A DNA stretch of 64,000 bases, taken from the IMG/VR virus record IMGVR_UViG_3300028886_000037, positions 96,001-160,000 of that record. One strand, given 5' to 3'. The notes below the pieces were generated by a model, which was given only the letters and a program-made list of their open reading frames with translations, had not been told where the DNA came from and searched no databases. Source of the DNA: a virus. Lineage: Duplodnaviria > Caudoviricetes. A program made the translations under genes and the position numbers. Shown here one piece after another: positions 45,185 through 58,255 of this stretch; the stretch's first letter is position 1; each line of letters opens with the position of its first letter.

Positions 45185-45874
45185 TTACCATTCCTTTGTG
45201 CCATCTGCGCCCTTGTGTTCGATCAGGGCTTCCATAGAGTCATACTTGACGTAGCCGCTTTCGTGAATCTTCGCAGCGCCGCTCTCGATAACAGCCTTGA
45301 TGTCTTCCCAGTCTGCCTTGAAGTCATCCACAGAAGTGTACTTCTTGCCGTTGATCTGGCACTGGAGATCGGGCCATTCCTGTTCGCAGTAGCCGTTCAC
45401 GTCGCGGCCCCAGCCGTAGTGAGTCGAAGAGTCGGTAGTGCGCTTCGGCTCGTAGACTCGAACGATCTCGTACCATTTGCCGTCTTGAGCCTTGTACATG
45501 AAAGCCGAGACCCAAGCGAGAGTCTGATGATGACCGTTTATGTGACCCTCATAGTTGGCGTAGACAGACGGATAGAGGAATTCGGCGGGCATAGAGTTCC
45601 AGGTCTCGGAGATCTTCTCCCACCGTTCGATCATCTTTGTCGCTTCGTTGTGAGCCTTGACGAGACGCTTTGCCTTGCGGATCTTCCTTGCGTTCTTGAC
45701 AGGATCAGTTTCCTTGTCGACGTTAGCAGTAGCGCGATCGGACTGCAGACGGAGCTTCTTTTCCTGTTCCCTCCAGTGTTCGAGAACCTTAGCGTTGTAA
45801 GCGCGACGGTCCTGACAGACGCAGTGCTTGCCAGTGAGTTCGTAGATGGAAGAGAGATCGGAAATAGTGACCAT
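45185..45874 (-). CDS. Hypothetical early protein
   Basis: 229 aa behind early promoter 45904-45934. Confidence 0.8.
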   Translation of the reverse strand: MVTISDLSSIYELTGKHCVCQDRRAYNAKVLEHWREQEKKLRLQSDRATANVDKETDPVKNARKIRKAKRLVKAHNEATKMIERWEKISETWNSMPAEFLYPSVYANYEGHINGHHQTLAWVSAFMYKAQDGKWYEIVRVYEPKRTTDSSTHYGWGRDVNGYCEQEWPDLQCQINGKKYTSVDDFKADWEDIKAVIESGAAKIHESGYVKYDSMEALIEHKGADGTKEW

Positions 45875-45954: not shown

Positions 45955-45992
45955 CAAAAATAGGCAGACACAGTCACTGCCATGTCTGCCTG
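45955..45992 (-). terminator. Terminator of tRNA array
   Basis: AGGCAGACA...TGTCTGCCT hairpin + ATTTTT. Confidence 0.75.
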
Positions 45993-46130: not shown

Positions 46131-46135
46131 AAAAC

Positions 46136-46276
46136 GAGATTCATTTTAGCGGACCGCCTCCTTTAACCACTTGGATATCTCCGCGAATGAGGTTGTTATG
46201 CGGAGAGACAGGATTCGAACCTGCGAAGGCGCAAGCCAGCGGTTTTACAGACCCTGGGAATTGCTGTTAGAATCTC
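46136..46276 (-). ncRNA. ACAGCAA-scaffold RNA carrying circularly permuted tRNA-Tyr(GTA)
   Basis: GAGATTC/GAATCTC stem; 3' half (TGTAAAACCGC..T arm..TCTCCGC A) precedes 5' half (GCGGAGA..D arm..GCGGTC). Confidence 0.85.
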
Positions 46277-46279
46277 TAG

Positions 46280-46549: not shown

Positions 46550-46932
46550 ATGATAGGGACGCCGATCGTTGCTCATTTAAGGCTTATTGATCAGCCGCTG
46601 CTTCGTGTCTCTTCTCTCTTGATCCGAATAGCAGCTTACAAAAGATCAGTCAACGGTTTCTCGTTGACGCTATCTGGTGTGACCAGCACTATCTCTATTC
46701 TTATTAGAGCAAGCACCAAGTTCTTCGTCTTGGAACTAGTAGAGACTGGCATGACCTTACTGAGCAGTTTGCCCAGGAGTTAGACCGATGTTCTGACCAT
46801 CAGCCAAGGGAGCTGAGATTCAAGCTGTGCTGCTCAGCTCTCGCCCTGTCCTCGTTAGCCAAGGCAATTTCCAGTTGCTCTACGCTGCATCGGTTTGTAG
46901 GAATTAAGCTTTAGAGTTGCTGTGCCTATCAT
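46550..46932 (-). ncRNA. Large ACAGCAA-scaffold RNA (~380 nt)
   Basis: ATGATAGG-C-ACAGCAA-CTCT ... CCTATCAT-G; several internal hairpins; no credible ORF. Confidence 0.7.
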
Positions 46933-46936
46933 TAAG

Positions 46937-47069
46937 AATCTCTGATGACGCATTACTGAGCTATCCTTTACGCGTTCTCAGCCACTATTCCGCAACTTAT
47001 GCTACTGCACTAGCCCCAAAAGGATCTACCTTGGACGGGCTTTTACTTACATCATCTTCATCAGTGATT
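46937..47069 (-). ncRNA. Structured RNA, TGATGTAAGTA family copy 1
   Basis: AATC-A-CTGATGA/TCATCAG-A-GATT closing stem. Confidence 0.5.
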
Positions 47070-47072
47070 TAG

Positions 47073-47146
47073 TCCCATAGCCGAGATTCGAACCCGAACT
47101 TCATGCGCCACAAGCATGCGTGCTAACCAATTAACACTACTGCGGG
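47073..47146 (-). tRNA. tRNA-His(GTG), no G-1, A73
   Basis: CATGC-TT GTG GC-GCATG. Confidence 0.88.
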
Positions 47147-47151
47147 GATGT

Positions 47152-47238
47152 GTAACGAGAGCGTGATGGTGGGCAGTTTAGAACTGCCAAGAATCCTTGC
47201 GGATCACCATCTTCATTTCACCATCACGTTCTCGTTAC
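47152..47238 (-). ncRNA. Long-stem RNA capped by GNRA hairpin and T-arm-like hairpin
   Basis: ~20-bp stem GTAACGAGAACGTGATGGTG/CACCATCACGCTCTCGTTAC; GGCAG-TTCTAAA-CTGCC. Confidence 0.6.
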
Positions 47239-47242
47239 TTAG

Positions 47243-47316
47243 TAGCTCTGTCGGGACTTGAACCCGAATTTCTAGCTTGAGAGGCTAACGAACTAAACCA
47301 GTTATTCGACGGAGCC
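47243..47316 (-). tRNA. tRNA-Glu(CTC)
   Basis: TTAGC-CT CTC AA-GCTAG. Confidence 0.9.
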
Positions 47317-47322
47317 AAAGAC

Positions 47323-47439
47323 GAGATTCACTTTAGCGGGACTCGAACCCGTAACCTCTTCACTATTTCAGTGAAGTGCTCTACCAATTGAGCTATTTTC
47401 CCAACGGCGGAAAAAACCAGAGTTTGCTGTTGGAATCTC
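47323..47439 (-). ncRNA. ACAGCAA-scaffold RNA carrying permuted tRNA-Phe(GAA)-like module
   Basis: 3' acceptor strand TTTTTCC precedes GGGAAAA-D-anticodon-T arms; GAGATTC/GAATCTC stem. Confidence 0.8.
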
Positions 47440-47442
47440 TAG

Positions 47443-47514
47443 AGCACCTAGCGAGGATCGAACTCGCGACTACAGTTTGGAAGACTATCATGTTAGCCAC
47501 TACACCATAGACGC
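47443..47514 (-). tRNA. tRNA-Gly(TCC)
   Basis: ATAGT-CT TCC AA-ACTGT. Confidence 0.9.
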
Positions 47515-47520
47515 GGATGT

Positions 47521-48210
47521 TTAATTTATAGAGGAGAGGGTGGGATTCGAACCCACGGAGGTTTCCTCCTCATATAATTTAGTAAAATCATTTCCATACT
47601 TATTTTCGACGTATTCTAAGTATGGCTTAATCTCTCTTTTCGTAATAATCGAAAGCTCTTTAGGAAATTGGTCATATTTTGCTTGCCACTGCTTAGACCA
47701 ATATCCCTTCAATTCAACATATTTTCCATCGACTATGAAGTCTGGAAGATAGTTATATTCTTTGCCTTCGAATATGTACTTAAACTTTTCTTTGTTCCTT
47801 TCGAATTTTATTCCGTGTTCAAGATTATATATCACGTATGCTAGTTCCCAAGAGCTGTCGCAGAAATATCCTTTATACCAACCCTTCTTTCCACGACCAG
47901 ATCCTTTACGATAGCCACCTAATGTGTGCCTAATCTTATTAGTCTCTTTTATCTTTTGTCGTGTTTCTTCCGTTTGGGCATGTTTCTTATATTCGACCCT
48001 TTCTGGATTCTTATAACATCTTTTTTCATGGAATCTCAGTGTATGCTTATATTCAAAATAGTTTCCGCAAAATTTACAATTTCCACCTTTATTAAATAGG
48101 AATTTCTTATGCTCTTTTTTATGATTTTCAGACTTATGTTTCTGAAGATCTCTTCTACTAGTACCGACATATTCACAGAATGAACATGGCCAAGTGTATG
48201 ATAATCTCAT
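47521..48210 (-). CDS. PD-(D/E)xK homing endonuclease inside tRNA-Ser
   Basis: Zn fingers; GWYKGYFCDSSWELA..YLPDF..YVELKG; C-terminus reads through tRNA T arm. Confidence 0.85.
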   Translation of the reverse strand: MRLSYTWPCSFCEYVGTSRRDLQKHKSENHKKEHKKFLFNKGGNCKFCGNYFEYKHTLRFHEKRCYKNPERVEYKKHAQTEETRQKIKETNKIRHTLGGYRKGSGRGKKGWYKGYFCDSSWELAYVIYNLEHGIKFERNKEKFKYIFEGKEYNYLPDFIVDGKYVELKGYWSKQWQAKYDQFPKELSIITKREIKPYLEYVENKYGNDFTKLYEEETSVGSNPTLSSIN

Positions 48211-48397
48211 ATTACTCTCTCAAAGAAGTAAAGCGGGTGTCCGATTCGAACGGACGAGAGGTTTTAACCTCTGCTTGGGTTCAGGCCAAGTGCGATAAAC
48301 CAACTCCGCCAACCCGCCATAAATTATTTATACAATCAAGACTAGTGCTTTTTGCCAGTTTCAAATCCGGATCCATAAACCACTCGGACACCTCTCC
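47532..48397 (-). pseudogene. Disrupted tRNA-Ser(TGA): 5' half 48355-48397, 3' half 47532-47568
   Basis: GGAGAGG...TT TGA AA and ...GTGGGTTCGAATCCCAC CCTCTCC T CTA; acceptor strands complementary. Confidence 0.85.
48231..48318 (-). tRNA. tRNA-Ser(TGA), replacement copy
   Basis: CTTGG-CC TGA AC-CCAAG, long V arm; C at position 33. Confidence 0.8.
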
Positions 48398-48404
48398 AAA
48401 GTAG

Positions 48405-48492
48405 AGGCGGGTGCAGGATTCGAACCTGCGGCTCCTTTATGGGGAGCAACTCGTTAGCACCGAGCCGGTTTAGACCACTCACCCAACCCGCC
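48405..48492 (-). tRNA. tRNA-Ser(GCT)
   Basis: GCTCG-GT GCT AA-CGAGT, long V arm. Confidence 0.9.
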
Positions 48493-48495
48493 ATA

Positions 48496-48569
48496 TCCAC
48501 CCGCTAGGACTTGAACCTAGAACCTCGGGGTTATGAGTCCCTTGCACCAACCAATTGTGCTACAGATGG
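48496..48569 (-). tRNA. tRNA with CAT anticodon (Ile2 or Met)
   Basis: CT CAT AA loop; imperfect anticodon stem. Confidence 0.8.
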
Positions 48570-48574
48570 GAATC

Positions 48575-48707
48575 AAGATGTCATCTGTGCTCCCGGGGCT
48601 GGACTCGAACCAGCAGCCTTCTGGCGTCTTACTGAGGAAGGTCCTCTGCGACAGCCGTTCTAACCAGTTGAACGTACCCTGGAAAATAGAATTGCGGTTG
48701 ACATCTT
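48575..48707 (-). ncRNA. Scaffold RNA (ACCGCAA variant) carrying tRNA body with remodelled anticodon arm
   Basis: AAGATGTCA/TGACATCTT stem; D and T arms normal; anticodon loop replaced by GAGGA-CCT-TCCTC extension. Confidence 0.75.
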
Positions 48708-48714
48708 TTATTAG

Positions 48715-48762
48715 AGCTACCAGCAGGACTCGAACCTGCGAAGGGATGAACCCAGCAGATTA
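48715..48762 (-). pseudogene. 3' half of long-V-arm tRNA with U73 (probably Cys)
   Basis: AATCTGC-TGGGTTCATCCCTTC-GCAGGTTCGAGTCCTGC-TGGTAGC T CTA begins at endonuclease stop. Confidence 0.7.
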
Positions 48763-49374
48763 TAACAATTTACTGAGGATTCCCTCTATATAGGTTCGTT
48801 TAGCCTCTTTAGGAAGACGTTGGTATTCGGACCAATTACAGCGTCCTAATAGCGTCCATCCTTGCTCCTTTAAATTCTCTGTTCTTTCTTCATCATGTAA
48901 TTTTCCTTTTGATGTGTAATGCGTCTTGCCATCAACTTCAAAATAAAGCTTTTTATCAGGCCATGCAAAATCTAACCAATAGGGTTTTACATAATAGTTA
49001 TTTTCAAATTTTACGTTCTCATTTGTAAAAATGTTAAACCAACTTTGCTCAGCATAACTTCGTTTTCGTCTTCCTATCCATGAACTTGCGCGTCCTTCTC
49101 TATGTGCTTTTTTCATTCCGAGAGAAATTCTTTTGCATATAGCTTCGGTGTTTTTATGTCCTTTACATCGCAGCTTATTTGGATTCTTCTCGCAATGCAT
49201 TTCATGTCTAGTCATTTCACCACGAGTAATATGCTTGATTTTACCGCAGTATTTACATTTTAAATCATATTTAGGTGCTTGGCCATTTTTAATCTTATGT
49301 TCTTCGCTTTTATGCTTATAGAGCTTTCTACGTGATTCGATTTCAGCACCGCAATGTTCGCATACCCAAATCAT
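48760..49374 (-). CDS. DUF559/Vsr-like homing endonuclease
   Basis: SYAE, LDFAW, FEVDGKTH, D..R...L...GW; N-terminal Zn fingers. Confidence 0.85.
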   Translation of the reverse strand: MIWVCEHCGAEIESRRKLYKHKSEEHKIKNGQAPKYDLKCKYCGKIKHITRGEMTRHEMHCEKNPNKLRCKGHKNTEAICKRISLGMKKAHREGRASSWIGRRKRSYAEQSWFNIFTNENVKFENNYYVKPYWLDFAWPDKKLYFEVDGKTHYTSKGKLHDEERTENLKEQGWTLLGRCNWSEYQRLPKEAKRTYIEGILSKLL

Positions 49375-49396
49375 TTTTATTTCTCCATTTTAGCTT

Positions 49397-49484
49397 TATA
49401 GTCGTTCCAGCGACCATATTATTTATAGCAGTTAGAAGAACTGGAGATGTTCCTCAGCTGGCTGGAACCAGTTGTCCCACTATA
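49397..49484 (-). ncRNA. Three-way-junction + kissing-hairpin RNA around late promoter, copy 1
   Basis: Covaries with copy at 54255-54342. Confidence 0.7.
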
Positions 49485-49487
49485 GTA

Positions 49488-49575
49488 AGCGCTCAGTTGG
49501 ATTTGAACCAACGTGGAGATTTCTCTCAGCGGCTTTGCAGGCCGTGGTCTTCGACCAGGCTCGACCCATGAGCGC
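49488..49575 (-). tRNA. tRNA-Cys(GCA) with long variable arm
   Basis: CGGC-CT GCA AA-GCCG, U73, GAGA-GAAA-TCTC V hairpin. Confidence 0.85.
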
Positions 49576-49586
49576 ATATTGTTTAG

Positions 49587-49660
49587 TACTCCGTCCAAGA
49601 TTCGAACTTGGATCAAGGGCTTCGTAGGCCCGTATGCTGAGTCCATTACACCAACGGAGC
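49587..49660 (-). tRNA. tRNA-Arg(ACG)
   Basis: GGGC-CT ACG AA-GCCC. Confidence 0.9.
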
Positions 49661-49666
49661 ATAGTC

Positions 49667-49781
49667 AAGATAACGTCTTTTGAGCTGAGTCCTGAGCCAC
49701 TAGACGACACCGGTATACGCCGATGACTGGATTCGAACCAGTGTTGCAGCTTTGGGATAGTGAAGATGCTGTTGTTATCTT
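49667..49781 (-). ncRNA. Scaffold RNA carrying circularly permuted tRNA-Gly(CCC)
   Basis: AAGATAAC/GTTATCTT stem, ACAGCAT; TCCCAAAGCTG..T arm..CATCGGC precedes ACCGGTG..D arm..CAGCTC. Confidence 0.85.
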
Positions 49782-49785
49782 ATAG

Positions 49786-49868
49786 TCCTCCAGGAGGGAC
49801 TTGAACCCTCACGCCATTTCTGGCACCAGTTCCTAAGACTGGCGTGTCTGCGATTCCACCACCAGAGG
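49786..49868 (-). tRNA. tRNA-Leu(TAG)
   Basis: CCAGT-CT TAG GA-ACTGG. Confidence 0.9.
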
Positions 49869-49872
49869 ATAG

Positions 49873-49945
49873 TGCCACCCCTCCGTAACGATCGGAGATC
49901 CTCGGATTTTCAGTCCGTTGCATAGACCATCTTTGCTAGAGTGGC
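49873..49945 (-). tRNA. tRNA-Phe(GAA)
   Basis: CGGA-CT GAA AA-TCCG; atypical T loop ATCGTTA. Confidence 0.85.
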
Positions 49946-49951
49946 ATAATC

Positions 49952-50007
49952 GAGATTCTTTTGTTTCTTAACCAAAAAGAAGATTTTAGAGTTGCTGTAA
50001 GAACCTC
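49952..50007 (-). ncRNA. Minimal ACAGCAA-scaffold RNA with one 5-bp/7-nt stem-loop
   Basis: GAGGTTCTT/AAGAATCTC; TTCTT-TTTGGTT-AAGAA. Confidence 0.75.
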
Positions 50008-50011
50008 TTAG

Positions 50012-50085
50012 TCGGCAACCTTGGACTTGAACCAAGAACCTCTGCCTTATCAGAGCAGTGCTCTAACCAATTGAGCTAGATGCCG
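50012..50085 (-). tRNA. tRNA-Ile(GAT)
   Basis: CTGCT-CT GAT AA-GGCAG. Confidence 0.92.
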
Positions 50086-50097
50086 ATAAAAAATTTC

Positions 50098-50165
50098 AAG
50101 ATCCATTTTTCTAACGTAGTCTGATTACCAATCGGATGTTATAAGAATTTTGCAGTTAGGATCTT
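50098..50165 (-). ncRNA. Scaffold RNA (ACTGCAA) carrying isolated Thr(GGT) anticodon arm
   Basis: AAGATCC/GGATCTT; TCCGA-TT GGT AA-TCAGA. Confidence 0.8.
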
Positions 50166-50211
50166 TAGTAGTCTCCGATCAGGGATTCGAACCCCGGACC
50201 TGAAACTTTTA

Positions 50212-50285
50212 TCTTCGACCTAGGACTTGAACCTAGAACATCCGTCTTGTAAGGGCGGCGCTCTAACCAATTGAGCTAGCCGAAG
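50212..50285 (-). tRNA. tRNA-Val(TAC), replacement copy
   Basis: CCGCC-CT TAC AA-GACGG; overlaps endonuclease 3' end. Confidence 0.88.
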
Positions 50286-50919
50286 TTACGAACGATTTAA
50301 TTGATGAAATTGCCTCTGAAGTATTTCTCATTATGTACTTCCAAGTCAATCTCAGACATTTCCAACCGTTCTCTTTGCAATAAGTGTCTTTTTCGACATC
50401 CATTGCTTTTCTGCTGGGCCATTCATGTTGAGATCCATCAATTTCCAGATAGATCTTTAATTCTGGCCAAGCAAAATCCATGAACCATTTGCCAAAATGA
50501 TATTCTTCAACAAATGGAAAATTAGAAAGCTCCGTTTCGAGTAACCTCTTTGTCCATTCTTCAGCATAAGATCTTTTACATTTACTTCTCGACGACCACC
50601 AGATTCCGCCATTTTCTTTTATCTGTTTCTTACGAATTTCAGATAGCTTCTTCTTTGTGGCTTCAGTATGTTTAGATCCCAAGCGTAAGGCATTTTCGCC
50701 TGAATACCTTTTGCTAAAAGTTTCACTTGCTTGTTTTACTCTCGGATCATTATCCTTAGTTAGTCCTTTGTTCCAAGAAGGATGAGATTTAGAAAAGCCG
50801 TGTTCATCTTTGTGATGTTTCTGGAGTTCTCGTCTCGTTCTACCAACGAACGGACAATACTTGCAGCACCAGTCACCAGATGCGTTTTTCTGTTTTCTCT
50901 CTTTCTCATATCTTCCCAT
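50263..50919 (-). CDS. DUF559/Vsr-like homing endonuclease
   Basis: SWNKGLTK, HTEATKKKLS, SYAE, MDFAW, LEIDGSQH, GWKCLRL.W. Confidence 0.85.
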   Translation of the reverse strand: MGRYEKERKQKNASGDWCCKYCPFVGRTRRELQKHHKDEHGFSKSHPSWNKGLTKDNDPRVKQASETFSKRYSGENALRLGSKHTEATKKKLSEIRKKQIKENGGIWWSSRSKCKRSYAEEWTKRLLETELSNFPFVEEYHFGKWFMDFAWPELKIYLEIDGSQHEWPSRKAMDVEKDTYCKENGWKCLRLTWKYIMRNTSEAISSIKSFVTSASSIG

Positions 50920-50975
50920 ATTTTATTTATAGGAAGGATGGCACTCTGAACCAGCTGAGTTAACCGGAGAGATAG

Positions 50976-51049
50976 TGCCCCACCAAGGACTTGAACCTTG
51001 AACTCTCTGCTTAAGAGGCAGATACTCTAACCAATTGAGTTAGTGAGGC
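50976..51049 (-). tRNA. tRNA-Lys(CTT)
   Basis: TCTGC-CT CTT AA-GCAGA. Confidence 0.92.
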
Positions 51050-51055
51050 ATATAG

Positions 51056-51128
51056 TTCCGGTAGCAGGGATCGAACCTGCGACTTTCTCCGTATGAAGGA
51101 GATGCTCTACCAACTGAGCTATACCGGG
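51056..51128 (-). tRNA. tRNA-Met(CAT)
   Basis: TCTCC-TT CAT AC-GGAGA; C1:A72 mismatch. Confidence 0.88.
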
Positions 51129-51199
51129 GGGAAATCCACTGGCAGTTTGTGAGATACTGCCTAAACTCCTGAGGGCTACCTCAGAAAGCTAAAAGATAC

Positions 51200-51269
51200 G
51201 AGATAGAGTGGCCTTGCGCCACGAAACCGCATGATGGAGCAGAGGGGTGAAACTTGCTGTGTCTATCTC
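51200..51269 (-). ncRNA. ACAGCAA-scaffold RNA, short cargo with GCAA-loop hairpin
   Basis: GAGATAGA/TCTATCTC-G stem. Confidence 0.7.
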
Positions 51270-51277
51270 AAATTTAG

Positions 51278-51351
51278 TAGCGCCATCGGGACTCGAACCC
51301 GAATTTCCGACTTGAAAGGCCGGTGAACTGAACCAGTTATTCGATGGCGCC
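51278..51351 (-). tRNA. tRNA-Glu(TTC)
   Basis: CCGGC-CT TTC AA-GTCGG. Confidence 0.9.
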
Positions 51352-51357
51352 AAAAGC

Positions 51358-51464
51358 GAGATACGTTCTTTGTGTATAGCCCATCTGACTTTCGTCAGAC
51401 TTGCAGCTTTTCAGCTTATGGATTCGAACCACTTACAGTAAGAAATCATTGCTGTTTGTATCTC
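51358..51464 (-). ncRNA. ACAGCAA-scaffold RNA with T arm + two GAAA hairpins
   Basis: GAGATAC/GTATCTC; GTGG-TTCGAAT-CCAT, AGCT-GAAA-AGCT, TCTGAC-GAAA-GTCAGA. Confidence 0.8.
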
Positions 51465-51478
51465 TTTTTCAAATGTGT

Positions 51479-51621
51479 CAGATACGGCGGATTCGAACCG
51501 CGATCTCAGACGTTGCGACATCTGGGACTTTTTGCACCGTCTCCACGACGGGACCGAAGCTACCTGCTTGTCAGAAGAGATAGAGTTCGCAACCTCTAAA
51601 ACTTCCTATCGGTACATATCC
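51479..51621 (-). ncRNA. Enlarged tRNA-like RNA (acceptor + T arm, expanded interior)
   Basis: GGATATG/CGTATCT acceptor, GCGG-TTCGAAT-CCGC, ~110 nt multi-hairpin interior. Confidence 0.6.
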
Positions 51622-52414
51622 TACGCTTAGTAGCGGGACCGGGACTAGAGTCCCGGTCAGAAATGCTAAAACTTTCTTGAATTTTGATAGTCTGTAATAA
51701 TCTGAAAATTTCGTTTTCTCTTTCAATTTTAGAAAGTTTTTGAAATTCAGACCATCTAATTCTTTTTAAGAGCATCCAACCGTTTTCTATTAAAAATTCC
51801 GTTCTGATCTTGTCGTGTTCGATACCTTCTTTAGTATAGTGCTGTTCTCCATCAACTTCAATGTATATTTTTGATTTAGTCCATGCAAAATCTAAAGTAT
51901 ATCGGCCAACTTGATGTTGAGTTTCGGCATCTGTAAATATAGTTTCAAAATACTCTTCAGCATAAGATTTTCTTTTGTTTAACCAATTACAGTGTGTACC
52001 GCTAAGATTTTTAATAGCTGCATCTGATAATTTCCTTTTAGTTTCATCCGAAGTTTTATGACCTTGCCAAATTTGCTTATTCGGATTTTCTTTACAAAAC
52101 TTTTCGTGTCTTGTTAAATCGCAAGCTCTTTTATAAATTAAACCACAGAATTGACAAGGTATGTTTAAATCTGGATGATAGCCATAGAATTTACCTTTGA
52201 TTTCGTTAATATGTCCTTCTTTGCGATGCTGTTGTAATCTACTTCGTGAATGAAAATCATTGCCACAAATTGAACATTTCCAAATTTTAGAATTCTTTTG
52301 TATTCCTCTATTCGGATTTTTAAGACACTGCTTAGAAATGTGTGTTCCTAATTGTGCCCCAGTAGTAAACTCCATGTTACAAAATTTACATATATGTTTT
52401 ATTTCCAATTCCAT
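51596..52414 (-). CDS. DUF559/Vsr-like homing endonuclease inside an initiator-tRNA remnant
   Basis: Three Zn fingers, SYAE, LDFAW, IEVDGEQH; probable start MELEIKH after TATAAATA. Confidence 0.85.
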   Translation of the reverse strand: MELEIKHICKFCNMEFTTGAQLGTHISKQCLKNPNRGIQKNSKIWKCSICGNDFHSRSRLQQHRKEGHINEIKGKFYGYHPDLNIPCQFCGLIYKRACDLTRHEKFCKENPNKQIWQGHKTSDETKRKLSDAAIKNLSGTHCNWLNKRKSYAEEYFETIFTDAETQHQVGRYTLDFAWTKSKIYIEVDGEQHYTKEGIEHDKIRTEFLIENGWMLLKRIRWSEFQKLSKIERENEIFRLLQTIKIQESFSISDRDSSPGPATKRRICTDRKF

Positions 52415-52448
52415 ATAGTATTTATAACATGAGCTAACCACTGCTCTA
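51631..52448 (-). pseudogene. Disrupted initiator-type tRNA-Met: D arm 52431-52448, T arm/acceptor remnant 51631-51657
   Basis: TAGAGCAGTGGTTAGCTC and ACCGGG-ACTCTAGT-CCCGGT-CCCGCT A CTA. Confidence 0.65.
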
Positions 52449-52453
52449 AATTA

Positions 52454-52537
52454 TAGCGGGAGCCAGAGTCGGACTGGCACAAGCATTATCTGTCCCTGGG
52501 TTATGAGCCCAGTATCTTACCATTAGACTATCCCGCG
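52454..52537 (-). tRNA. Initiator-type tRNA-Met(CAT) with long variable region
   Basis: C1 mismatch, CTGGG-CT CAT AA-CCCAG, 17-nt V region. Confidence 0.8.
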
Positions 52538-52544
52538 ATAATAG

Positions 52545-52619
52545 TGGACCGTAAGGGAATCGAACCCTTGACATCCAGCTTGCAAAGCTGGCGCTCTACC
52601 AAAACTGAGCTAACAGCCC
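52545..52619 (-). tRNA. tRNA-Ala(TGC)
   Basis: G3:U70; CCAGC-TT TGC AA-GCTGG. Confidence 0.92.
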
Positions 52620-52624
52620 GAAAG

Positions 52625-52677
52625 AATCTGTGAATGGCTCTGACCTCGAAAGGTTCTCCGTACTTACATCACAGATT
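52625..52677 (-). ncRNA. Structured RNA, TGATGTAAGTA family copy 2
   Basis: AATCTGTGA/TCACAGATT stem, ACCT-TTCG-AGGT hairpin. Confidence 0.55.
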
Positions 52678-52681
52678 TTAG

Positions 52682-52754
52682 CTGTCCCACCTGGACTCGA
52701 ACCAGGGACGGGGTGATTAACAGTCACCTACTCTACCAACTGAGCTATGGGACA
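52682..52754 (-). tRNA. tRNA-Asn(GTT)
   Basis: GGTGA-CT GTT AA-TCACC, G73. Confidence 0.92.
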
Positions 52755-52758
52755 TTAA

Positions 52759-52855
52759 AGATAAAGCCGAAGATTTCAATATGCAGATCGGATTCTCGAT
52801 CCAGATCTTTTTTGTTTGATTCTAATATAGAAACTTCTTTCGGGTTTGTAAACCC
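52759..52855 (-). promoter_or_regulatory. Promoter + hairpin/boxA-like leader of tRNA operon
   Basis: GGGTTTAC..TATATT, AGATC hairpin, TGCATATTGAAA, TTCGGCTTTATCT. Confidence 0.7.
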
Positions 52856-52894
52856 TCTTTCTCAGAATTTTTTGAGAAAGTTGTTTATTTATAG

Positions 52895-52967
52895 CTCCCT
52901 GTGGACGACTTGAACGACCGACATCGAAATTACAAATTTCGCGTTCTACCAACTGAACTAACAGGGA
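52895..52967 (-). tRNA. tRNA-Thr(TGT)
   Basis: CGAAA-TT TGT AA-TTTCG; U1-A72, G73 body. Confidence 0.85.
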
Positions 52968-52977
52968 ATAAGAGCGC

Positions 52978-53043
52978 TGAGGATATGAGTGAAAAGCTAT
53001 CTCGAGTTCACAGTTCATCGGATATCCTCTCTAAGCATCCTCA
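52978..53043 (-). ncRNA. Structured RNA, GTGAAYTCGAGATA family copy 2
   Basis: TGAGGAT/ATCCTCA closing stem; shares GCT(C)TAGAGAG and GTGAAYTCGAGATA with 46357-46450. Confidence 0.5.
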
Positions 53044-53052
53044 TCTTCACGT

Positions 53053-53128
53053 GATCGACGAGTGGATTGGAACCACCGCACCAGGCCCCGAATGGGCCTG
53101 CGCTCTACCATGCTGAGCTACGAAGATA
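53053..53128 (-). pseudogene. tRNA-like element with extended anticodon stem
   Basis: D and T arms normal; CAGGCCC-ATTCG-GGGCCTG; mismatched acceptor. Confidence 0.6.
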
Positions 53129-53156
53129 CGTCCTTGAATTCAGACGCTTAGATTAG

Positions 53157-53240
53157 TGGGTAAGGTAGGATTCGAACCTACTAAGCCCGAAGGCAACGGC
53201 TTTACAGGCCGCCCCAACTCACCATCGTTGGCGCTTACCC
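53157..53240 (-). tRNA. tRNA-Tyr(GTA)
   Basis: GCGGC-CT GTA AA-GCCGT, long V arm. Confidence 0.9.
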
Positions 53241-53244
53241 TTGT

Positions 53245-53528
53245 ACGGCCGGTCATTTATAGTCTTGTGACCGAAGACTTTACCCAACTCACGCTTATGC
53301 CGTTATTTTTCGCGATAGAACCATCACATGTGATGGTAGAATCGAATTCAAGATTCCAGCGGCCTGGTCAGGATGCTTATGCCTATGCTCTCCCCTGACT
53401 CCTTCACAGCCTTCGTCCGCTTGTCTATACGGACTTCTGCTGATCAACCAGTAAGCGCCCTTCCATTGGATCCAATTGACGGCGAAGTAGCGCTCAATGT
53501 AGCGGCCTTTGCAAGGATGGCGACTCCA
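53245..53528 (-). ncRNA. Candidate structured ncRNA with 3' H-type pseudoknot
   Basis: AGTCTT-CGGTCAC-AAGACT-ATAAA-TGACCG; other hairpins; no credible ORF. Confidence 0.5.
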
Positions 53529-54230
53529 CTATTGCCAGAGTCTCTCCTTCAATTCATAGCGGGACCGATGGGATTCGAACCCACAGCCTCCAGCCTTATT
53601 TTCATAAAGCATTTCTATTCGTTCAGTCCCGTATTTTTTATAAACGTACTCTAAATACTTTTTCATCTCTCTTCTATATAGGACGATTAACGGATATTTG
53701 AAAGTTCTTAATTTTTCCTCCCATCTATTATTTCTACGTCCTTTTATTTCATAATATGTATCGCCTATTTTAAAATCAGGATAGTATTTATGGATTTCTC
53801 CATTGCTTACATATTCAAAGCCTATTTTATTTCTCTCAAATTCTATTCCGTGATCTAAATTATAAATTACGAAAGCTAATTCCCAACGTGAATTGCAATA
53901 AAAGCCTTTATACCATCCAGAATAAATAGTACCAGATTTTTCTCTATAACCACCGCATCCAGCAGCTTTAGAAGTCTCTCTTAACTTCTCTTTTAATTCG
54001 TCCGTCATTCTATGCTTTCTATAGCAATCTTTACAAAATCCGGTCGAATTACGATTATCTAAAGATTTTCCGCAGTCTTTACAAAATCTCTTTTCAGTTT
54101 TTGAAAATAGTTTTGATAGTCTTCTCTTTAGTTCTTCTGTTCTTATTCTGCTATTAGCGCATGCTCTTGAGCAGAATCTTCCGCTTCCAAAAGAGCCATC
54201 ATGCTCTTTTCCACATTTTTCGCAGATCAT
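53529..54230 (-). CDS. PD-(D/E)xK homing endonuclease reading into tRNA-Asp 3' half
   Basis: GWYKGFYCNSRWELA..YYPDF..YYEIKG; paralogue of 47521..48210. Confidence 0.85.
   Translation of the reverse strand: MICEKCGKEHDGSFGSGRFCSRACANSRIRTEELKRRLSKLFSKTEKRFCKDCGKSLDNRNSTGFCKDCYRKHRMTDELKEKLRETSKAAGCGGYREKSGTIYSGWYKGFYCNSRWELAFVIYNLDHGIEFERNKIGFEYVSNGEIHKYYPDFKIGDTYYEIKGRRNNRWEEKLRTFKYPLIVLYRREMKKYLEYVYKKYGTERIEMLYENKAGGCGFESHRSRYELKERLWQ
53560..53594 (-). pseudogene. 3' half of tRNA-Asp
   Basis: GCTGG-AGGCT-GTGGGTTCGAATCCCAT-CGGTCCC G CTA; Asp identity inferred from acceptor and G73. Confidence 0.7.
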
Positions 54231-54428: not shown

Positions 54429-55289
54429 GAGATAGTTTTTCTTACGCGCTCTACCAGTTGAGCTACCTCACAGCATGGCTGCAAGGACGTTAAAATACAC
54501 ATCTCAATAATATCTTCCTATTAGTAATTTATCAGAACTAAAAGCCGATGAATTACAAATATATTCTTTATATTTTGGTATATAACACTTAAATAATCTT
54601 ACAATTTCTGGCAAAAGAGGAATGTTTTCTAATTTTGCAAATTCTCTAATTGACTTATAATTTCCAGAATGGAAATAGTCCCATAATTCCCTTGCTCTAT
54701 TAAATGCACTTATTTTACTTTTGTTAAAGAGTATACTATTTTCTCCTCTAAATAGATTTCTTCCAAGAACCCAATCCTTATTAGGTAAAATTTTGAATTT
54801 TTTGCATTCTCCATTGATTCTATTCGTATACCATTTAGTTCCGTATTGTGAATTTTTATTTCCTTTTTGTTTCAATTTCATACTTTCAGAAACGTATTTT
54901 GCAAATTCTGTTCTAAGCTTTTCGTATGCTCTAGAATTCATATAACGACTCTTATCTTCTGTAGGATGTCCTCTCATCCTCCAGAAGGCATACATCATTT
55001 TTCTTCTCTCATCTGTTCCCTTCTTGAATATCTTTACCAATAGCCAATGACAGAGGAAATGCTCTCTAGCAGTCAAAGGAACTAAGTTATCACGTTGATC
55101 CGATCCTCCTAAAGAACTAGGAAGAATATGATGTTCTTCATAATAACCTTCCGGTTTTCCTCTTATCTTTGCCCTATATACTATTTTCAGATAAACTTTT
55201 CTATAATCCATGTATTATTTATACATTTCATATCTCGAACCCGCAACATCGGTCTTAACAGGACATTTGAGAGTTGCTGTAACTACCTC
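54429..55289 (-). ncRNA. ACAGCAA-scaffold RNA carrying permuted tRNA-Asn(GTT), interrupted by an HNH gene
   Basis: GAGGTAGTT/AACTATCTC stem; GTC-CT GTT AA-GACCG..GCGGGTTCGAG | HNH | CCTTGCAGC-CAT-GCTGTGAGG-D arm. Confidence 0.8.
54504..55211 (-). CDS. HNH homing endonuclease
   Basis: EEHHILPSSLGG...NLVPLTAREHFLCH; paralogue of 33649..34359. Confidence 0.88.
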   Translation of the reverse strand: MDYRKVYLKIVYRAKIRGKPEGYYEEHHILPSSLGGSDQRDNLVPLTAREHFLCHWLLVKIFKKGTDERRKMMYAFWRMRGHPTEDKSRYMNSRAYEKLRTEFAKYVSESMKLKQKGNKNSQYGTKWYTNRINGECKKFKILPNKDWVLGRNLFRGENSILFNKSKISAFNRARELWDYFHSGNYKSIREFAKLENIPLLPEIVRLFKCYIPKYKEYICNSSAFSSDKLLIGRYY

Positions 55290-56986: not shown

Positions 56987-57019
56987 AAGATCTCCAAGTT
57001 TTTAGTGTTGTATTTATAG

Positions 57020-57091
57020 TGCGGGTGGCGGGGTTCGAACCCACGACTCGAAGATTAAAATTTAGTACTCTACCAACTGAGTTACACCCAC
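57020..57091 (-). pseudogene. tRNA-Lys(TTT)-like gene with unpaired anticodon stem
   Basis: Acceptor, D, T arms intact; CTAAA cannot pair with TCTTC. Confidence 0.7.
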
Positions 57092-57200: not shown

Positions 57201-57280
57201 TACGCCAGGCGGGCTTCGAACCCGCATTTGCAGCTCCAGTTACGGCTAACGGATTAGAAGTCCGACCCGGCTACTGGCGT
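57201..57280 (-). ncRNA. Arm-rearranged tRNA-Arg(TCT)-like RNA
   Basis: No D arm before CGGA-CT TCT AA-TCCG; D-loop-like GTAACTGGA hairpin follows it. Confidence 0.75.
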
Positions 57281-58174: not shown

Positions 58175-58180
58175 ATGTAG

Positions 58181-58255
58181 TGGAGACGAAGGGAATCGAA
58201 CCCTTCACAGCCTGATTGCAAGTCAAGCTCGCCATCCTTGGTAACATGCATCCCC
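58181..58255 (-). tRNA. tRNA-Ala(TGC), atypical D arm
   Basis: G3:U70; CTTGA-CT TGC AA-TCAGG. Confidence 0.75.

What the first reader, a model, noticed from the sequence alone, without database searches (positions are those of the whole stretch)
46136..46276. Circularly permuted tRNA-Tyr(GTA) in a phage
Seen: the 3' half (TGTA AA ACCGC, V arm, GCAGG-TTCGAAT-CCTGT, acceptor strand, A73) lies upstream of the 5' half (GCGGAGA TA TCC AAGTGGTTAAA GGA G GCGGTC), joined by a ~14-nt linker. The break is at the anticodon loop and GGTC is present on both ends. Re-ordering gives a well-formed cloverleaf. Known: permuted tRNA genes are described in some algae and the archaeon Thermofilum, where they mature via a circular intermediate at BHB motifs. 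No BHB is evident here. An intact Tyr tRNA exists at 53157-53240, so a non-decoding role is plausible.
Basis: partly seen in the sequence, partly recalled or inferred. Interest (0 to 1): 0.85.

Follow-up and report, generated by a model that had tools for sequence, protein, structure and literature searches.

The report
Phage tRNA-mimic RNA with intact anticodon
The back-to-front tyrosine tRNA is real and under selection, but it is most likely not a tRNA gene: it is the cargo of a small phage RNA whose conserved 'handle' probably binds a Ro60-shaped phage protein, and unlike known bacterial Y RNAs it keeps a complete anticodon loop.

Summary
In detail: the 3' half (46249-46199) precedes the 5' half (46184-46152) across a 14-nt linker, and the re-ordered sequence is called tRNA-Tyr(GTA). 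It is not an assembly artefact: four homologues show compensatory changes, and an independent DNA contig spans it. The halves sit inside a 7-bp closing stem plus ACAGCAA, a 'handle' found ten times in this tRNA cluster and once directly upstream of a DUF2828 gene whose model matches only Ro60 structures. DUF2828 occurs in 28/33 phage records with such RNAs versus 3/25 controls (unmatched). Across 52 family members the break lies in the anticodon STEM, so the anticodon loop stays closed. Discriminator bases fit the anticodon in 27/69 members versus 486/526 true tRNAs. There is no BHB motif and no splicing endonuclease, and a conserved extra base sits between T stem and acceptor stem. Best reading: a YrlA-like tRNA mimic with a different handle and an intact anticodon, probably used against host anticodon nucleases (inferred). 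The Tyr subfamily keeps TyrRS identity elements and both stem registers, so maturation to a tRNA is unlikely but not excluded. The scan noted this handle family before in at least 16 genomes; I found no paper describing it.

The parts
46136..46276 (-). whole handle RNA (141 nt), lying between tRNA-Trp (ends 46279) and tRNA-Leu(GAG) (starts 46130)
   Evidence: same position and neighbours in homologue L268
46270..46276 (-). handle stem, 5' arm (GAGATTC)
   Evidence: pair probability 0.97-1.0 and compensatory changes at pairs 1 and 6 in five homologues
46261..46267 (-). unpaired ACAGCAA motif, 2 nt after the handle arm; putative protein-binding site
   Evidence: binding is inferred
46251..46253 (-). 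local strand forming the lower anticodon stem (positions 29-31)
   Evidence: pair probability 0.86-0.91; family counts; G to A at 46252 in L197
46244..46250 (-). intact 7-nt anticodon loop CTGTAAA, anticodon GTA (Tyr)
   Evidence: invariant in five homologues
46239..46243 (-). anticodon stem 3' strand (39-43), able to pair with both the local and the post-D strand
   Evidence: C to T at 46242 in L197
46225..46238 (-). long variable arm, class II type
46207..46224 (-). T arm plus one extra nucleotide before the acceptor strand
   Evidence: extra base in 5/5 homologues; absent from 7 bacterial tRNA-Tyr genes with the same body and from 37 window tRNAs
46199..46206 (-). acceptor 3' strand and A73; no CCA encoded
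   Evidence: none of the 37 window tRNAs encodes CCA either
46185..46198 (-). 14-nt linker closing the acceptor stem (5 nt after A73 in three homologues)
46152..46184 (-). 5' half: acceptor 5' strand, D arm, post-D anticodon strand (27-31 at 46157-46153) and C32
   Evidence: G to A at 46154 in L197
46136..46142 (-). handle stem, 3' arm (GAATCTC), followed by G as in all ten copies
49667..49781 (-). sister handle RNA with a second permuted tRNA-like cargo (CCC triplet where the anticodon would lie)
54429..55289 (-). sister handle RNA with permuted Asn(GTT)-like cargo, interrupted in the T loop by ORF 54504-55211
46550..51464 (-). seven further handle RNAs with other cargo: 46550-46932, 47323-47439, 48575-48707, 49952-50007, 50098-50165, 51200-51269, 51358-51464
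45962..45991 (-). 12-bp terminator-like hairpin ending the tRNA operon after tRNA-Leu
   Evidence: consensus match only

Best explanation
A phage non-coding RNA of Y-RNA design. It is transcribed in the tRNA operon and released when the flanking tRNA-Trp and tRNA-Leu are processed (inferred from abutting ends). Its 5' and 3' ends pair into a 7-bp stem next to ACAGCAA (shown by covariation). This handle is most likely bound by the phage's Ro60-shaped DUF2828/DUF7788 protein (inferred from fold, gene position and co-occurrence; about 0.7). The cargo folds as a near-complete tRNA whose acceptor end is closed by a loop. Its anticodon stem is built from two strands, with the handle grafted on at about position 29/30, so a normal GUA anticodon loop is displayed (shown comparatively). 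It is not spliced into a decoding tRNA (about 0.85). The most likely job is counter-defence: the protein-stabilised mimic acts as decoy or inhibitor for host anticodon nucleases, or as a scaffold for tRNA repair (inferred; about 0.4 for a decoy or inhibitor role).
For: Ten handle units in the cluster with varied cargo, some only an anticodon hairpin, and one between a promoter-like site and the DUF2828 start. DUF2828+DUF7788 protein: model pLDDT 90; all 13 PDB matches at E<=0.001 are Ro60/Rsr, TM 0.35-0.57. DUF2828 in 28/33 records with the RNA pattern (17/18 near-complete) versus 3/25 controls (2/13) (Fisher p 3e-8); two of the three control positives have handle RNAs within 6 kb of the gene. 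Composite stem in 52 dereplicated members: pairs 31:39 and 30:40 come from the local strand (44 and 43 Watson-Crick; shuffled 13 and 20), pairs 28:42 and 27:43 from the post-D strand (41 and 43; shuffled 14 and 15.5); the crossed combinations 31:39 and 30:40 post-D and 28:42 local are at chance. Discriminator fits anticodon in 27/69 versus 486/526 true tRNAs; 16/58 short-arm members carry Tyr, Ser or Leu anticodons. No strict BHB, no splicing endonuclease, no RtcB; Rnl1 in only 9/34 records. Conserved extra base in the acceptor/T helix. Literature: YrlA has the same T-acceptor-D order with a closed acceptor (10.1101/312249); Bas63 gp130, Ro60-like and upstream of the tRNAs, counters the Ppl defence (10.1101/2024.10.10.617714); retron-Eco7 degrades tRNA-Tyr (PMC11555353).
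Against: No binding, processing or function was measured. The handle lacks the GNCGAAN0-1G motif of YrlA and the genome has no TROVE match. In this genome the protein gene lies about 65 kb from the element. Control records were smaller and not clade-matched (3 of 9 above 115 kb had the gene), and related phages are not independent. The Tyr subfamily is an exception within the family: it keeps G1:C72, A73, the long arm and GUA (7/8 long-arm Tyr members keep A73) and a full post-D stem. The energy minimum does not form the D arm or the post-D pairing, so the L-shape is inferred from conservation. The search pattern required a Y-U-NNN-A-A loop, so loop frequency in the family is biased.
Confidence: 0.66

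Rival explanations
1. Two-piece, chargeable tRNA mimic. Host RNase P cuts at G1, the linker is trimmed, the phage's CCA-type enzyme adds CCA and TyrRS may charge it, while the handle stays attached at the anticodon stem. This is what M. smegmatis YrlA does short of charging. It is compatible with the best explanation as an extra step.
For: 7-bp acceptor stem with G1:C72 and A73 invariant in 5 homologues despite a rewritten stem. The phage encodes a PolyA_pol/CCA-family nucleotidyltransferase. 22/104 family members have N-CCA after the acceptor strand. Precedent in PMC4201824.
Against: The conserved extra base disturbs the 12-bp acceptor/T helix. An RNA-library contig runs through the linker, so uncut molecules or DNA are present. 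Most family members lack synthetase identity.
Confidence: 0.3
2. A true permuted tRNA-Tyr gene. An unknown nuclease cuts both strands near position 32, phage Pnk/Rnl1 ligates them into a circle, and RNase P and 3' processing open the acceptor, giving a decoding tRNA.
For: Removing the handle in silico gives an ARAGORN tRNA in 67/69 members. The post-D strand pairs 5/5 in all five homologues and is followed by C32. Rnl1 lies directly upstream of the Ro60-like gene, with a kinase-like and a nucleotidase-like gene nearby. Short linkers do not exclude maturation: T. pendens tRNA-Tyr has 1 nt (PMC3978253). Wang et al. raised this possibility for YrlA.
Against: No BHB and no endonuclease. An intact tRNA-Tyr exists at 53156-53240. 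The extra base would remain in the product. The local register, not needed for splicing, is kept under selection. Rnl1 is missing from 25/34 records. No back-joined form is listed in three RNA runs, though contigs cannot prove absence.
Confidence: 0.08
3. Relic: a tandem duplication or a capture of slightly more than one turn of a tRNA-Tyr, now decaying without function.
For: The 4-6 nt redundancy at both ends fits an origin from a tRNA dimer (the model for YrlA). The cluster is full of tRNAs broken by endonuclease ORFs. Relatives L001 and G002 lack the element (both are fragments, but L001 covers the site).
Against: Three of four differences between the query and L197 are one coordinated change in all three stem strands. 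Acceptor, D and handle stems covary. 120 distinct permuted handle RNAs were found in fetched loci. This explains the origin, not the upkeep.
Confidence: 0.04
4. The handle is a processing or stability signal or a regulatory ligand independent of the Ro60-like protein, for example a ligand for T-box, RelA or modification enzymes.
For: Handles lie between tRNAs far from the protein gene; 5/33 records lack a DUF2828 match; one control record with the gene showed no handle within 6 kb.
Against: Strong co-occurrence, and a copy right at the gene's 5' end; 4 of the 5 records without the gene are incomplete.
Confidence: 0.15

Closest known systems
YrlA Y RNA (Rfam RF02553; Chen et al. 2014 PMC4201824; Wang et al. 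2018 10.1101/312249)
   Same: Ends paired into a protein-binding module; tRNA-like domain in T, closed acceptor, D order; Ro60-shaped protein in the same genome; several RNAs per genome.
   Different: Handle is a 7-bp stem plus ACAGCAA, not GNCGAAN0-1G; Rfam score 14.5 bits against a cut-off of 69; partner is DUF2828/DUF7788, not TROVE; YrlA lacks the anticodon loop whereas this RNA keeps loop, variable arm and a two-strand anticodon stem.
Permuted tRNA genes of red and green algae and Thermofilum pendens (review PMC3978253)
   Same: Order leader, 3' half, intervening sequence, 5' half, trailer; class II tRNA-Tyr; re-ordered sequence is a cloverleaf.
   Different: No BHB, no splicing endonuclease; junction in the anticodon stem, whereas green algae mostly use 37/38 and archaea 59/60 (C. 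merolae uses various positions); redundant with an intact gene; member of a family that mostly lacks tRNA identity.
phiRo60 with Yrl1/Yrl2 of Thermus phage phiLo (PMC12135203)
   Same: Phage Ro60-fold protein with small RNA partners; its structure 9kop matches the model at E 1.2e-6.
   Different: Those RNAs use a CGAA motif; ACAGC does not occur in the paper's text; 16% identity.
Bas63 gp130 (bioRxiv 10.1101/2024.10.10.617714)
   Same: Ro60-like phage protein near a tRNA array, required against the Ppl defence; the authors guessed that some annotated tRNAs are Y RNAs.
   Different: No RNA was identified there; I did not test whether gp130 is DUF2828.
Dictyostelid Class I RNAs (PMC7919456)
   Same: Short stem joining the ends, conserved motif beside the 5' arm, variable middle.
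   Different: Eukaryotic, 42-65 nt, no tRNA-like cargo described; homology not tested here.

Membership tests
Permuted tRNA gene (algal/archaeal type) | 3' half upstream of 5' half; re-ordered sequence forms a cloverleaf | tested here: met
   (with one extra base in the acceptor/T helix)
Permuted tRNA gene (algal/archaeal type) | BHB motif at the junction | tested here: not met
   0 strict BHB in 5 homologues
Permuted tRNA gene (algal/archaeal type) | tRNA splicing endonuclease available | tested here: not met
   PF01974 absent from the phage; host unknown but taken as bacterial from sigma-70-type promoters and rumen origin
Permuted tRNA gene (algal/archaeal type) | circular intermediate and ligated mature tRNA | tested here: inconclusive
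   no back-joined form listed in three RNA runs, but only contigs were available
Permuted tRNA gene (algal/archaeal type) | aminoacylation identity matches anticodon | tested here: inconclusive
   met by this Tyr subfamily (G1:C72, A73, long arm), not by the family (27/69 versus 486/526)
YrlA (RF02553) | T arm, loop-closed acceptor stem, D arm order inside a terminal stem | tested here: met
YrlA (RF02553) | GNCGAAN0-1G Ro60-binding motif on the 5' strand | tested here: not met
   leader sequence has ACAGCAA instead
YrlA (RF02553) | Rfam gathering score of 69 bits | tested here: not met
   14.5 bits, E 1.9
YrlA (RF02553) | no anticodon loop | tested here: not met
   7-nt loop on a two-strand stem
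YrlA (RF02553) | TROVE-family Ro60 gene nearby | tested here: not met
   PF05731 absent; a Ro60-fold DUF2828 protein is encoded about 65 kb away
Y RNA in the wide sense (Ro60-bound ncRNA) | Ro60-fold protein in the same genome, co-occurring with the RNA | tested here: met
Y RNA in the wide sense (Ro60-bound ncRNA) | RNA physically bound by the protein | not testable with these tools
   needs EMSA or co-immunoprecipitation
Dictyostelid Class I RNA | 11-nt motif and Rfam model match | tested here: not met
   no such family listed up to E 10; architecture alike

The most novel reading that the evidence does not exclude
The Tyr subfamily is a switchable precursor. The handle, held by the Ro60-like protein, keeps it as a mimic, and a BHB-independent cut plus phage Pnk/Rnl1 ligation converts it on demand into a working tRNA-Tyr. 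That would be the first permuted tRNA gene matured in a bacterial cell, and a reserve against tRNA-Tyr-destroying defences.
Probability: 0.08. Interest if true: 0.92.

Novelty: new variant of a known kind. Interest (0 to 1): 0.6.

Why it matters
The effector of YrlA-type tRNA mimics is unknown, and phage Ro60-like proteins have a counter-defence phenotype (Bas63 gp130) but no identified RNA partner. This family is widespread in large phages (120 distinct permuted members from capped scans), is missed by ARAGORN and Rfam, and displays at least 20 different anticodon triplets on intact loops. That makes one question directly testable: do phages use protein-stabilised anticodon decoys against tRNA-cutting defences? 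The two-strand anticodon stem with a grafted handle is a wiring I did not find in the papers searched.

Tried and rejected
Exact pattern for close copies in viral contigs: 0 hits. The neighbouring ORF 45185-45874 gave no related loci. blastn against annotated phages hit only parts of ordinary tRNAs, including tRNA-Tyr 3' parts in mycobacteriophages; an attP reading was dropped because both halves and the handle are present and covary. TROVE, RtcB and splicing endonuclease are absent. phmmer of the Ro60-like protein against PDB found nothing relevant. A first control scan gave only 4 loci. A group I intron or PIE arrangement was rejected: flanks are under 30 nt and there is no Rfam match. I first took short acceptor loops (36/104 at most 5 nt) as proof against maturation and withdrew this. 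Handle-stem pair counts over the whole family are not evidence, because the parser required pairing; a loose stem-plus-hexamer scan also fires on control words, so handle calls rest on the shared arm sequence, the 3' G and clustering. Contig depths in RNA runs were not used as expression levels. The unitig break at 46148-46177 in run X6 could be a variant or an RNA end and could not be resolved. Paper searches for ACAGCAA, DUF2828, permuted tRNA with phage, and tRNA decoys found no description. Burroughs and Aravind 2016 was not held, so it was not checked. No complex prediction was run: the tool does not take RNA partners.

Full report
Observation. The window is positions 96,001-160,000 of a 247,923-nt virus record, about 98% complete and found in bovine gut samples. 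It holds 37 ARAGORN tRNAs on the minus strand, none at 46131-46278. On the minus strand this gap reads: 29-nt leader, 3' half 46249-46199, 14-nt linker, 5' half 46184-46152, 21-nt trailer. Re-ordered, it is called tRNA-Tyr(GTA), though ARAGORN shifts the acceptor register because one extra base sits between the T stem and the acceptor strand. The unit folds better than 200 of 200 shuffles. A DNA contig from another study spans it without a joint, and an RNA-library contig holds it in permuted order.

The frame. Leader and trailer pair through GAGATTC/GAATCTC, with ACAGCAA two bases after the 5' arm and a G after the 3' arm. The same design occurs ten times in the cluster, with cargo from a lone hairpin to a 383-nt insert, and twice more with permuted tRNA-like cargo. 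An eleventh copy lies outside the window between a promoter-like site and the start of a 501-aa gene. That protein is DUF2828+DUF7788 with a trace of vWA_Ro60. Its model has pLDDT 90, and all 13 PDB matches at E<=0.001 are Ro60 or Rsr. A T4 Rnl1-type RNA ligase gene lies directly upstream, with kinase-like and nucleotidase-like genes nearby. The phage also encodes a CCA-family nucleotidyltransferase but no TROVE, RtcB or tRNA splicing endonuclease. The Ro60 link was suggested by earlier scan notes and then tested here.

Homologues. Four homologues were found: L197, L268 (same neighbours, in a complete 243-kb phage), L164 and L195. All 35 acceptor cells pair, with double changes at five of seven pairs; the D stem, handle and anticodon stem also covary. 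L197 differs from the query at four bases. Three are one coordinated change: C40 to U, with G to A in both strands that can pair with it. Both registers are therefore kept under selection. The extra base in the acceptor/T helix is present in all five, but in none of seven bacterial tRNA-Tyr genes with the same body and none of the 37 window tRNAs. No strict BHB forms in any of them.

Family anatomy. Capped scans yielded 120 distinct handle RNAs with permuted cargo. In 52 dereplicated short-arm members the loop was placed by its distance from the T arm and a Y-U-NNN-R pattern, without regard to pairing. Pairs 31:39 and 30:40 come from the strand just before the loop (44 and 43 of 52; shuffled 13 and 20). 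Pairs 28:42 and 27:43 come from the strand after the D arm (41 and 43; shuffled 14 and 15.5). Post-D pairing at 31:39 and 30:40 is at chance. So the permutation point is in the 5' strand of the anticodon stem, the handle is grafted there, and the anticodon loop is whole. Removing the handle in silico gives an ARAGORN tRNA in 67 of 69 cases. But the discriminator fits the anticodon in only 27 of 69, against 486 of 526 true tRNAs in the same loci, and 16 of 58 short-arm members carry class II anticodons. The family keeps tRNA shape and anticodon loops, not charging identity. Long-arm Tyr members are the exception (7 of 8 keep A73).

Co-occurrence. DUF2828 is present in 28 of 33 large records picked by the RNA pattern (17 of 18 near-complete) and in 3 of 25 tRNA-bearing controls (2 of 13). 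No control matches the permuted pattern, but two of the three positives have simpler handle RNAs near the gene. The controls are smaller and not clade-matched. Rnl1 occurs in only 9 of 34, so ligation is not a general part of the system.

Mechanism. Shown: structure by covariation, family membership, Ro60 fold, co-occurrence. Inferred: release from the operon by processing of the abutting tRNAs; protein binding at the handle (about 0.7); no conversion to a decoding tRNA (about 0.85); action against anticodon nucleases as decoy, inhibitor or repair scaffold (about 0.4 for decoy or inhibitor). The last step rests on the intact and varied loops (TGT and TTT most common in the scan not biased to Tyr), on the Bas63 gp130 phenotype and on tRNA-Tyr being a retron-Eco7 target. 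Opening of the acceptor by RNase P with CCA addition, as in M. smegmatis YrlA, is a real possibility for this member (0.3). Full splicing is unlikely (0.08) but not excluded: RNA contigs list no back-joined form but cannot prove absence.

Comparison and novelty. It works like YrlA but fails YrlA membership on motif, Rfam score, partner family and the anticodon loop, which YrlA lacks. It fails membership of algal and archaeal permuted tRNA genes on BHB and endonuclease. I found no paper on the handle family; one relevant review could not be read. Earlier notes of this scan report the same handle in at least 16 genomes and an inside-out form with the Y arm inserted in the anticodon stem; these are unchecked notes, not support. 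Verdict: new variant of a known kind, interest 0.6.

Noticed in passing
window 46550-46932 (-): Largest handle RNA (383 nt), with long paired cargo and no Rfam match; the contigs with the greatest depth in RNA run X6 cover part of it (depth is not an expression level).
   Followed up: no
window 54429-55289 (-); L001 8040-8760: An HNH-like ORF is inserted at the T loop (after GGTTCGAGA) of a permuted Asn-like handle RNA here, and at the same motif in a tRNA-Gln of relative L001.
   Followed up: partly
window 47521-54230 (-): Several endonuclease-like ORFs (three DUF559, one weak endonuclease I match) split tRNA genes into orphan halves, for example Ser halves near 48395 and 47530-47571.
   Followed up: no
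window 47323-47439 and 48575-48707 (-): Handle RNAs with non-permuted D, anticodon-like and T arms; the hairpin in the anticodon position varies freely between relatives.
   Followed up: no
window 57019-57091 (-): tRNA called with anticodon TTA (ochre suppressor-like); relative L001 has Lys(TTT) at the same place.
   Followed up: no
window 57201-57280 and 58178-58255 (-): tRNA-like genes missed by ARAGORN: one with a long D arm and TCT in the loop, one with a Cys-like GCA loop.
   Followed up: no
L004 5863-10535 (genome 205,863-210,535): Cluster of AAA_33 kinase-like gene, NT5C-like gene, Rnl1 ligase, handle RNA and Ro60-like gene: an RNA-repair-like neighbourhood.
   Followed up: partly
L008, L016, L017, L230: A second long-arm Tyr subfamily with encoded CCA paired into the acceptor loop, a C2-C71 mismatch and a fully duplicated anticodon 5' strand.
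   Followed up: partly
L068 and L097: Handle RNAs permuted at another point: T arm, acceptor, D arm, then the anticodon arm last.
   Followed up: no
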